Source: Saccostrea cucullata | Taxonomy: Eukaryota | Direction of reading: 5' to 3' | Assembly: GCF_032062105.1 (NCBI RefSeq) | Contig: NW_026928293.1 | Span: 62,001 to 126,000 of the forward strand | DNA length: 64,000 bases | Part shown: piece by piece, positions 56,215-59,200 of the stretch | Numbering within the stretch: the first letter of the stretch is position 1 | How the letters are laid out: every line of letters starts with the position of its first letter | Program-made: the position numbers and the translations under genes | Notes under the pieces: generated by a model | What the model was told of the DNA's origin: nothing | Database searches by the model: none | The model's input: the letters and a program-made list of their open reading frames with translations, nothing else

Positions 56215-59200
56215 GGTGAAGGGAAATTTAAATTGTTAAAATGAAGGGACATATCCCCTCGCAAGGGGAGATAATCAAGAAAAGACAAAAATAGGGTTGG
56301 GTCATTAAAAAATCTTCTTCTCAAGAACCACTGGGCCAGAAAAGCTGAAACTTATGTGGAAGCATCCTGGGGTAGTGTAGATTCTAACTTGTTCAAATCA
56401 TGAACCCCAGGGGTAGGGCGGGGCCACAATGGGGATTCAATGTTTTACATAGAAATATATAGTAAAAATCTTTGAAAATCTTCTTCTTAAGAACTACTGG
56501 GCCAGTAAAGCTGAAACTTATGTGGAAGCATCCTGGGGTAGTGTAGATTCTAAATTGTTCAAATCATGACCCCCAGGGGTAGGGCGGGGCCACAATGGGG
56601 AATCAATGTTTTACATAGAAATATATAGGAAAAATCTTTGAAAATATTCTTCTCAAGAACCACTAAGCCAGAGAAGCTGAAACTTATTTGGAAGCATCCT
56701 GGGGTAGTGTACATTCTAAATTGTTCAAATCATGACCCCCGGGGATAGGGCGGGGCCACAATGGGGAATCAAGGTTTTACATAGAAATATATAGGAAAAA
56801 TCTTTGAAAATCTTCTTCTCAAGAACCACTGGGTCAGAAAAGCTGAAACTTATGTGGAAGCATCCTTGGGTAGTGTAGATTCTAAATTGTTCAAATCATG
56901 ACCCCCAGGGGTAGGACGGGGCCACAATGGGGATTCAATGTTTTACATAGAAATACATAGGAAAAATCTTTGAAAATCTTCTTCTCAAGAACCACTGAGC
57001 CAGAGAAGCTGAAACTTATTTGGAAGCATCCTGGGGTAGTGTAGATTTTAAATTGTTCAAATCATGACCCCCGGGGGTTGGGCGGGGCCACAATGTGGAA
57101 TCAATGTTTTATATAGAAATATATAGAAAAAATCTGAAAATCAAAGCTGAAACTCATATGGAAGCATACTGGGGTAGTGTATATTTCAAATTGCTTAAAT
57201 TATGATCAGTGGGGTAGGGTGGGGTCACAATATGTTTTACAAGGGGGAAATCTGGTAAAGAACAGAATGGCCAAAGCTTCTCAGGTGAGCGATGTGGCCC
57301 ATGGGCCCCTTGTTCTATTTAAAATCATGAAAGTCTTCCATAAAGGTCTGGAAACAATATTATTACAGGACATACAGACTATAGCAATTTTCTGTTTACG
57401 GTTAATTTTATTTGTAAAACCGGTTCTACCCTATAACCTTTGAATAGGTCAACCTAAACCACGTGCCTTGAATTTAAATCACAATAACATTAGTAGGGGT
57501 GACCTAGATGCCACAACTTTTTTTAATTTAGCTCTAAGAATTAGACCAGATAACTTTTTTTTTGTTTACAACGGGGCGTTCGATATTGAACGCTCGTATT
57601 CGGAATGTATGGGATGATACCTAGTAAATTTCATACCTGGCGAGGCGGAGCCGAGTCAGGTATGAAATTTACTAACCAGTATGAAATTTACTAACCAGGT
57701 ATCATCCCATACCCTGTCACTAAAAGACTATGTAACGAATTTACCCCACCGATGAAACATTTACGTTTTATCTGTGGTTTATAAAATTAATGTTTTTCTC
57801 TGCTAAATGCTTCATAATGCTTATACTGAGCCTATTATGACGTCACGTTATGTTTGTTACGTAATACATCGACCAGGTATAGATTTACAACTGACCGGGT
57901 ATAGATTTGCAACTGACCGGGTATTATTAGTTACATAGTCTTTTAGTGACAGGGTATGGGATGATACCTGGTTAGTAAATTTCATACCTGGTGAGGCGGA
58001 GCCGAGTCAGGTATGAAATTTACTCACCAGGTATCATCCCATACCCTGTCACTAAAAGACTATGTAACGAATTTACCCCACCGATGAAAAATTTACGTTT
58101 TATCTGTAGTTTATAAATGGTTTTCTCTGCTAAATGCTTCACGCTTACACTGTGCCTATTATGACGTCACGTTTGTGTTTGTGACATAATACATCGACCG
58201 GGTATAGATTTACTGACCGGGTATGGATTTACAACTGACCGGGTATAAGTAATCCACCGCCTTCATGTGACAGACTTCAACCAATCGTAAGCCAGGATTT
58301 CACGGAAAAATCGACAGAGGTGGGGTAAAAGTAATCCACCGCCTTCACGTGACAGACTTCAACCAATCGTAAGCCAGGATTTCACGGAAAAATCGACAGA
58401 GGTGGGCTCCGCCTCGCCAGGTATGAAATTTACTAACCAGGTATCATCCCATACCCTGTCACTAAAAGACTATGTAACGAATTTACCCCACCGATGAAAC
58501 ATTTACGTTTTATCTGTAGTTTATAAATGGTTTTCTCTACTAAATGCTTCATCACGCATATACTGTGCCTATTATGACGTCACGTTTGTGTTTGTGACGT
58601 AATACATCGACCGGGTATAGATTTACAACTGACCGGGTATAGATTTACAACTGACCGGGTATAAGTAATCCACCGCCTTCACGTGACAGACTTCAACCAA
58701 TCGTAAGCCAGGATCTCACGGAAAAATCGACAGAGGTGGGGTAAAAGTAATCCACCGCCTTCACGTGACAGACTTTAACCAATCGTAAGCCAGGATTTCA
58801 CGGAAAAATCAACAGAGGTGGGGTAATTGATAATATTTGTTATACCAAATCTCTTTATTTTCTTATATGCTGAATTCAATATAAAATCAGTTAAAAAACA
58901 CAAGAATCATGCAAATTACTAATTAGTGTTTGTAATTACACTTAATTACAATTTTTAAAACCAGAATGGGTTAATGCATTTCTCTATCATGTGCATCAGT
59001 TTTCTCATTCATTAGAATAATCACCACCACGACATGTTTTTAAACATTGAAATATTTACTGTGAACTATTATAATACGACGACAATAATTTTTTCATTGA
59101 GAAAAAGAATTGCCAATATCCTATGCATTCACCTACCACAAATCTTAATCCATTTCCCCTTCATTTACTTGTTTTTGCGCCCCCCCCCCCGCCTACCGGA

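What the first reader, a model, noticed from the sequence alone, without database searches (positions are those of the whole stretch)
57607..58826. Tandem hairpin-element array whose loop occurs in both flip and flop orientations
In units 1 and 2 the right arm is preceded by G(C/T)GAGGCGGAGCCGAGT. In unit 3 the same arm is preceded by the reverse complement GGCTCCGCCTCGC (58405-58417), while the body keeps its orientation. Loop inversion between 61-bp arms is what hairpin-transfer replication (parvovirus-style flip/flop) or recombinase inversion between inverted repeats would produce. Head-to-tail units with truncated junctions and duplicated 81-bp ends also suggest a circular or rolling intermediate. 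The apex is a GC-GGA-GC mini-hairpin of the very stable GNA-triloop type.
Basis: partly seen in the sequence, partly recalled or inferred. Interest (0 to 1): 0.7.

Follow-up and report, generated by a model that had tools for sequence, protein, structure and literature searches.

The report
Nested oyster hairpin transposon, one flip
A small non-coding jumping element in an oyster-type genome has piled up at one spot, and one copy has its hairpin tip reversed, most likely through a single copying slip rather than a built-in flip-flop, although the layout of its ends hints at how this poorly understood class of transposons moves.

Summary
In detail: hairpin units 1 and 2 carry the loop forward, and unit 3 starts with 13 nt of the reversed loop. 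The array is a ~400-bp non-coding DNA transposon in a Crassostrea-type genome. Its apex (GA-GGC-GNA-GCC-GA) matches the design of CgiSat40, which Repbase files as Crypton. A genome scan found long-arm look-alikes on animal-looking contigs that share the window's end layout: the sequence just after the right arm (TAA-N5-TTA) is an inverted copy of right end joined to left end. In family A there is no target duplication. In these look-alikes, 0 of 22 copies (20 independent sites) are flipped, so systematic flip/flop is not supported; no other copy of the window's own family was available. The junctions read best as one copy inserted into another, then a 416-bp duplication by template switching (2-nt microhomology) that reversed the loop once. 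The mobilising enzyme was not found. The end layout suggests a folded single-strand recombination site, like integron attC or CTX phage attP; this is inferred, and I did not find it in ten literature searches.

The parts
57607..57639 (+). Unit 1 left arm, 5'-truncated, with a 4-nt deletion
57640..57656 (+). Unit 1 loop, forward orientation (GA-GGC-GGA-GCC-GA apex)
57657..57736 (+). Unit 1 right arm with an internal 19-bp tandem duplication (57660-57698)
57740..57924 (+). Unit 1 body, broken after the third 22-bp repeat, at the same base where the 82-bp 'duplicated end' starts in units 2 and 3
57925..58328 (+). Unit 2: the only complete element (404 bp), from TATTAG-TTA to GGTGGGGTAA
57930..57990 (+). 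Unit 2 left arm (61 bp)
57991..58007 (+). Unit 2 loop, forward orientation, with one private C>T
58008..58068 (+). Unit 2 right arm (60 of 61 complementary to the left arm)
58065..58082 (+). Internal site TAA-CGAAT-TTA plus TTTACCCCACC; its reverse complement equals right terminus + spacer + left-arm start
58196..58247 (+). 22-bp body repeats (also 57871-57924 and 58609-58663); the last one holds the cryptic break site GGGTAT^AAGTAA
58319..58328 (+). Right terminus GGTGGGGTAA, inverted repeat of the segment just after the hairpin
58329..58406 (+). Second copy of the end segment; read as the displaced 3' remainder of unit 1 (inferred)
58405..58417 (-). Reversed, truncated loop (13 of 17 nt), joined by GG microhomology
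58418..58826 (+). Unit 3 right arm, body, terminus (58744) and second end segment (58745-58826): 416-bp-period duplicate of 58008-58406, 95.8% identical

Best explanation
The unit is a non-autonomous DNA transposon of the hairpin-ended class that Repbase files under Crypton (tyrosine-recombinase elements). SHOWN: the layout is left end - 61-bp arm - GA/GNA/GA apex - arm - TAA-N5-TTA site - body - terminus complementary to the post-hairpin segment. SHOWN: no coding frame above 68 aa. SHOWN in look-alikes: fixed loop polarity, and no target duplication in family A. INFERRED: a trans-acting tyrosine recombinase joins the two ends and integrates the element without duplication; I favour action on the folded top strand, where the internal site brings both ends together (about 0.3-0.4 within this explanation). 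INFERRED history: unit 2 integrated into an older copy (unit 1) at a cryptic end-like site, which gives both the unit 1/2 junction and the first 82-bp 'duplication'. Later a replication template switch duplicated 416 bp: the nascent strand jumped by GG microhomology onto the loop, copied it and the left arm backwards, and returned through arm homology. That reversed the loop once.
For: Same apex design and ~65-bp arms in CgiSat40, listed as DNA/Crypton. Same end layout in 7 look-alike families (9 elements tabulated; TAA-N5-TTA exact in 6 of 7 families). Window unit 2 and L087 fold into the same two-stem shape with a 3-nt linker. No TSD above mismatched-pair control in 7 family-A copies with intact ends. 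0 of 22 look-alike copies flipped; upper 95% bound 14% for 20 independent sites. Unit-1 break and start of the 82-bp segment coincide to the base. Unit 3's arm carries the left-arm allele at the single site where unit 2's arms differ. L116's left arm resembles the family's right arms (93-96%) more than its left arms (84-89%), which suggests arm-to-arm template switching in this class. C. gigas holds diverse CryptonA elements (PMC13465315).
Against: No tyrosine-recombinase ORF in 119 of 119 window ORFs of 68 aa or more, nor in the 30 longest of 98 ORFs in the look-alike loci. The Crypton link rests on one Repbase label for a different family, and that paper says non-Helitron similarities were fragmentary. 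Unit 2 has no BLAST similarity to any of the 121 loci, so only architecture is shared. The nested reading predicts a few unit-1-type differences in the 78-bp remainder; none is seen (P about 0.07). The arm allele could be a later mutation in unit 2. The window's arms are nearer perfect (60/61) than those of 12 look-alikes (80-95%), so this family may behave differently. The sites were picked by eye, not blind; 4 of 25 long-arm loci had no callable polarity or clear site.
Confidence: 0.6

Rival explanations
1. Recombinase inversion: in a double-stranded circle the end junction and the internal site are inverted copies, so the recombinase flips the hairpin (2-micron FLP-like; analogy recalled); unit 3 is such a product.
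For: The internal site is an inverted copy of the joined ends. Near-perfect arms in this family could reflect repeated exchange.
Against: 0 of 22 look-alike copies flipped. Unit 3 has no left arm and a truncated loop fused by 2-nt microhomology, not a clean site-specific product. The junction spacer is 6 nt and the internal one 5 nt, a poor match for double-strand exchange (inference).
Confidence: 0.12
2. Parvovirus-style hairpin-transfer or rolling-hairpin replication giving flip and flop ends.
For: A reversed loop before an unchanged arm and body; head-to-tail units; CRE-, E-box- and CCAAT-like words in the body (read by eye; motif names recalled).
Against: One hairpin per unit, not two termini. 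No NS1/Rep or capsid family among 119 window ORFs. Fixed polarity in look-alikes.
Confidence: 0.07
3. The element is mobilised by an HUH or other single-strand nuclease (Helentron-, Replitron- or REP-like), not by a tyrosine recombinase; the flip is still a one-off.
For: Hairpins are a general feature of HUH transposons (PMC10288648). The same apex occurs in many short-stem prokaryotic dispersed repeats (96 of 121 loci set aside). No TSD in family A.
Against: No microsatellite or 3' palindrome as in the neighbouring Helitron-N2 copy. No short terminal direct repeats as in Replitrons. Of 115 ORFs beside prokaryotic apices, one is GIY-YIG and none is listed as a Y1 transposase.
Confidence: 0.12
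4. Assembly artefact: unit 3 is an allelic or fold-back chimera joined in tandem.
For: Long palindromes produce fold-back reads and oysters are highly heterozygous (both recalled). Units 2 and 3 differ by only 11 substitutions in 399 columns plus two 3-bp indels.
Against: Each unit has private changes (8, 5 and 2 in 237 columns), and unit 3's loop has the ancestral C that unit 2's loop has lost, so it is not a re-read of unit 2.
Confidence: 0.08

Closest known systems
CgiSat40 of Crassostrea gigas (673 bp, Repbase hit DNA/Crypton; PMC8268682 Table 1 and Data S1)
   Same: Starts with a long hairpin whose apex is GA-3 bp GC stem-GNA-GA; body on the same side; recovered as a tandem-type repeat; same host group.
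   Different: Different sequence. Only its first 400 nt were visible, so its terminus could not be checked. Its post-arm site is not an exact TAA-N5-TTA.
Animal non-autonomous Cryptons (CryptonA-1N1/1N2_OL, CryptonI-1N1_RPro, Crypton-N1_SSa, Eulor5/6)
   Same: Short, non-coding, no classical TIRs (PMC3212892 section 8; PMC5753468). That Eulor5/6 carry a similar hairpin apex is recalled, not checked.
   Different: PMC3212892 reports no terminal repeats in animal Cryptons. Here an internal inverted copy of the joined ends is present. No autonomous partner was identified.
Integron attC and CTX phage attP(+) (folded single-strand substrates of tyrosine recombinases)
   Same: A strand folds so that two binding arms flank an unpaired spacer, and only one strand is used (PMC2095811; PMC4246890).
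   Different: Bacterial systems with demonstrated enzymes. Here the enzyme and the single-strand step are only inferred, and the site is built from the element's own two ends.
DIRS internal complementary region (ICR)
   Same: An internal segment complementary to both termini (DIRS ICR named in PMC13465315; its role in circularisation is recalled).
   Different: DIRS elements are retrotransposons with RT and long ITRs; this unit has no ORF, and its complement is 11 bp plus one hairpin arm.
Parvovirus flip/flop terminal hairpins
   Same: A reversed asymmetric loop between complementary arms (family feature recalled).
   Different: No second terminal hairpin, no NS1 or capsid, and no evidence of equal flip and flop.

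Membership tests
Crypton (non-autonomous, animal type) | Ends shared with an autonomous element that encodes a tyrosine recombinase | not testable with these tools
   No eukaryotic genome collection. No such ORF in the window or in 30 of 98 ORFs of look-alike loci.
Crypton (non-autonomous, animal type) | No target-site duplication | tested here: met
   7 family-A look-alikes: longest match 0-4 nt against control mean 2.8. Window: unit-1 halves rejoin without duplication (rests on the nested reading).
Crypton (non-autonomous, animal type) | No classical terminal inverted repeats | tested here: met
   The left end pairs with the right arm and the right end with the post-hairpin segment, not with each other.
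Crypton (fungal/oomycete type) | 4-6 bp terminal direct repeats | tested here: not met
   look-alikes; window. PMC3212892 also found none in animal Cryptons.
Crypton (non-autonomous, animal type) | Sequence similarity to a curated Crypton consensus | not testable with these tools
   No Repbase or Dfam. Six window motifs gave 0 hits in the CgiSat supplement, whose long sequences are cut at 400 nt.
Parvovirus-type rolling hairpin | Flip and flop near equal | tested here: inconclusive
   Window 1 of 3. Look-alike families 0 of 22. Own family not countable.
Parvovirus-type rolling hairpin | NS1/Rep and capsid genes between two terminal hairpins | tested here: not met
   Longest frame in the array is 68 aa, with no Pfam hit; one hairpin per unit.
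Helentron/HINE | Microsatellite, central satellite array and 3' palindrome after the sub-terminal repeat | tested here: not met
   Absent from the unit; present in the neighbouring Helitron-N2 copy at 56046-57315. The list of HINE features is partly recalled.
Replitron | Short terminal direct repeats and Rep HUH transposase | tested here: not met
   Features from PMC10288648; not seen.
Hammerhead retrozyme / Penelope-type tandem repeat | Hammerhead ribozyme in the monomer | tested here: not met
   No Rfam match at gathering threshold in the window; divergent ribozymes could be missed.

The most novel reading that the evidence does not exclude
Animal Crypton-type elements transpose as a folded single strand. 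The strand bearing the GA/GNA/GA apex folds into two stems; the internal TAA-N5-TTA site splints the right end to the left end (an ICR-like role); a tyrosine recombinase closes and integrates this strand without target duplication. This would be a eukaryotic counterpart of integron attC and CTX attP(+) recombination. Fixed loop polarity across seven families is its footprint, and the window's nested, reciprocal junctions record one integration event.
Probability: 0.27. Interest if true: 0.75.

Novelty: new member of a known kind. Interest (0 to 1): 0.42.

Why it matters
The flip itself is probably an accident and matters little. The end layout matters more. A 2026 review states that the Crypton mechanism has not been shown experimentally (PMC13565253), and the founding paper found no terminal repeats in animal Cryptons (PMC3212892). 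A conserved hairpin, an internal inverted copy of the joined ends and a fixed strand polarity define a concrete substrate. That would let single-strand versus double-strand recombination be tested directly, and it gives a structural rule for finding these elements and their exact ends.

Tried and rejected
An exact 25-nt arm pattern in genome contigs gave 0 hits. blastn of 57926-58830 against phages and plasmids gave no match. Rfam gave no match in the window. Six apex motifs in paper full texts gave one listed paper, unrelated by title. L080's 634-aa ORF next to a look-alike hairpin looked like an autonomous partner; it is a Pif1/PHD exon and the 380-bp element lies upstream of its splice acceptor, so it was rejected. 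The ISL2EU/Harbinger-like element at 41101-44690 is 13 kb away and shares no sequence with the array. Prokaryotic neighbours of the apex showed no consistent enzyme (115 ORFs, best 5 families shown each). ATon elements have true TIRs and an AT target and do not fit (PMC3422177 passages). An automated left/right IR test missed the window's own 11-bp IR and several look-alike termini, so polarity was taken from alignments and, for four singletons, from the terminal IR. The TSD test was one base off register and was redone. The review 10.1266/ggs.18-00024 was not held. No fold or complex job was run, as the element encodes no protein.

Full report
Setting. The window is about 33% GC with few long frames. 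Bases 56046-56089 are identical, by eye, to Box 1 of Helitron-N2_Cgi printed in the supplement of PMC8268682, and they flank a 166-bp array. The host is therefore a Crassostrea-type oyster (inference). The array at 57607-58826 has no other copy in the window, no Rfam match and no frame over 68 aa.

Observation. Confirmed. Loops 1 and 2 (57640-57656, 57991-58007) point forward. Bases 58405-58417 are the reverse complement of 13 of the 17 loop bases, placed before an intact arm and body. Only unit 2 is a full hairpin (60 of 61 bp; z -20.75). Unit 1's left arm is truncated and unit 3 has none. The end repeat has an 82-bp period.

Anatomy. Unit 2 (57925-58328) reads TATTAG - left arm - apex - right arm - GAA - TTTACCCCACC - body - GGTGGGGTAA. 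The end of the right arm and what follows form TAA-N5-TTA. The reverse complement of this internal site equals the right terminus, a spacer and the start of the left arm. Folded as one strand, the unit forms two stems joined by 3 nt, with the two ends side by side. The folding program does not model sheared G.A pairs, so the apex structure is read by eye.

Relatives. An exact arm pattern found nothing in genome contigs. I judged 25 of 121 to be long-arm hairpins on contigs that look animal-derived (microsatellites, a spliced Pif1/PHD exon, a LINE-like frame). The other 96 are short-stem repeats in prokaryotic gene contexts and were set aside. None is similar in sequence to unit 2, but seven families share the layout: TAA-N5-TTA is exact in six and has one mismatch in L014, and the terminus matches the post-arm segment with 0-1 mismatches in 12 for 8 of 9 elements (sites picked by eye). 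L087 folds like unit 2. Family A carries a near-constant 6-nt left end (TAATAG in 5 of 7) and shows no TSD above control. In C. gigas, CgiSat40 opens with a hairpin of the same apex design and is listed as DNA/Crypton. That label, on another family, is the only direct link to Crypton.

Flip/flop test. Polarity could be called for 21 of the 25 loci plus one extra copy found by BLAST (L044:3793-3975): family A 10 of 10, family B 2 of 2, family C 6 of 6 (4 independent sites) and four singletons, all with the body 3' of the GAGGCGNAGCCGAG strand, as in window units 1 and 2 and CgiSat40. L025, L094, L106 and L114 were not callable. In-silico flips would have been caught in 315 of 315 cases. For 20 independent sites P = 1.9e-6 under 50:50, and the upper 95% bound is 14%. 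These are other families from other organisms, so the test weakens flip/flop for the window's family but does not exclude it. Against my reading, the window's arms are nearer perfect than those of 12 look-alikes (80-95%).

How the array arose (inferred). Unit 1 breaks at 57924, after GGGTAT, exactly where the 82-bp segment starts in units 2 and 3. Unit 1 plus 58329-58406 rebuilds one element, so unit 2 reads as an insertion without duplication into an end-like site of an older copy; the two junctions are reciprocal, as expected from integration of an end-joined element. One result is in tension: unit 1 has 8 private changes in 237 columns, yet the 78-bp remainder has none (P about 0.07). Unit 3 with its second end segment is a 416-bp-period duplicate (95.8%), joined through GG microhomology to the reversed loop. 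It carries the left-arm allele at the one site where unit 2's arms differ. A nascent strand that switched onto the loop, copied the left arm backwards and returned by arm homology gives this product. L116's left arm, converted towards the right-arm sequence, suggests such switching in the class.

Mechanism. Most likely a trans-acting tyrosine recombinase; this is not shown. None was found in 119 of 119 window ORFs of 68 aa or more or in the 30 longest of 98 ORFs from the 25 loci. Typical sites are two inverted arms with a 6-8 bp spacer (PMC3212892). The predicted end junction here has 6 nt between TAA and TTA, and the internal site has 5. Fixed polarity and this asymmetry fit a folded single-strand substrate like attC (PMC2095811) or CTX attP(+) (PMC4246890) better than two equal inverted duplex sites, which should flip the loop often.

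Literature seen. Passages and supplement searches plus supplement part 2 of 49: PMC8268682. Passages, section 8 and the supplement list only: PMC3212892. Abstract, Background and passages: PMC13465315. Passages only: PMC5753468, PMC11136912, PMC10288648, PMC13565253, PMC3422177, PMC2095811, PMC4246890. Ten searches showed no paper describing this end layout or loop flipping in Cryptons; most hits were seen only as listings. Repbase reports and subscription journals are outside the library. CgiSat sequences are cut at 400 nt, the .rar supplement of PMC11136912 and the six PDFs of PMC3212892 were not read, and the alignment figure of PMC5753468 is not held; any of these may bear on family identity. 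Viral and metagenome collections stayed unchecked.

Verdict. A real, nested and partly duplicated cluster of a non-autonomous hairpin transposon of a kind already catalogued in oysters, with one reversed loop that is probably accidental. Interest 0.42, carried mainly by the shared end layout and the testable single-strand model (probability 0.27, interest 0.75 if true).

Noticed in passing
window 39435-44690: ISL2EU/Harbinger-like DNA transposon with convergent long ORFs: DDE_Tnp_4 + HTH (41101-42210 +), YqaJ exonuclease (42570-43718 -), a further 213-aa frame (44049-44690 -) and a weak THAP hit at 39435-39650. The family name is recalled.
   Followed up: partly
window 56046-57315: Helitron-N2_Cgi-type HINE with a GTCC microsatellite and five 166-bp repeats, about 290 bp left of the array; related arrays at 4166-6183 and 14342-14944.
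   Followed up: partly
window 45974-47464: 496-aa uninterrupted F-box ORF.
   Followed up: no
window 10067-10997, 23103-23324, 32689-33679: Host exons with Sedlin_N, EGF and methyltransferase hits.
   Followed up: no
window 57575-57597: Small GCGTTC/GAACGC hairpin directly left of unit 1's truncated arm; not repeated elsewhere in the window.
   Followed up: partly
window 59911-59969: Perfect 15-bp inverted repeat with a 29-nt spacer.
   Followed up: no
loci from CBDBCZ, CBDDTI, CBDDPN, OZ220043.1, CBDBMG, CBDICY, JBEVXV: Contigs filed as bacterial or archaeal MAGs, some over 2 Mb, carry animal-looking repeats and spliced genes and are probably host contamination.
   Followed up: partly
96 of 121 loci, e.g. 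L004, L008, L010, L013, L045: The same GA-GGC-GNA-GCC-GA apex recurs in intergenic dispersed repeats of many bacteria and archaea; one lies beside a GIY-YIG gene (L072).
   Followed up: partly
L116:261-367: Left arm converted to a near-perfect complement of the right arm, removing the extra GA/GA mismatches kept by sister copies.
   Followed up: yes
L080:740-2641 (-): 634-aa exon with a Pif1 2B domain and a PHD finger; a 380-bp hairpin element lies just upstream of its splice acceptor.
   Followed up: partly
L027:1355-3068: A family-C element split by a ~1.4-kb insertion in its body, another case of nesting.
   Followed up: no
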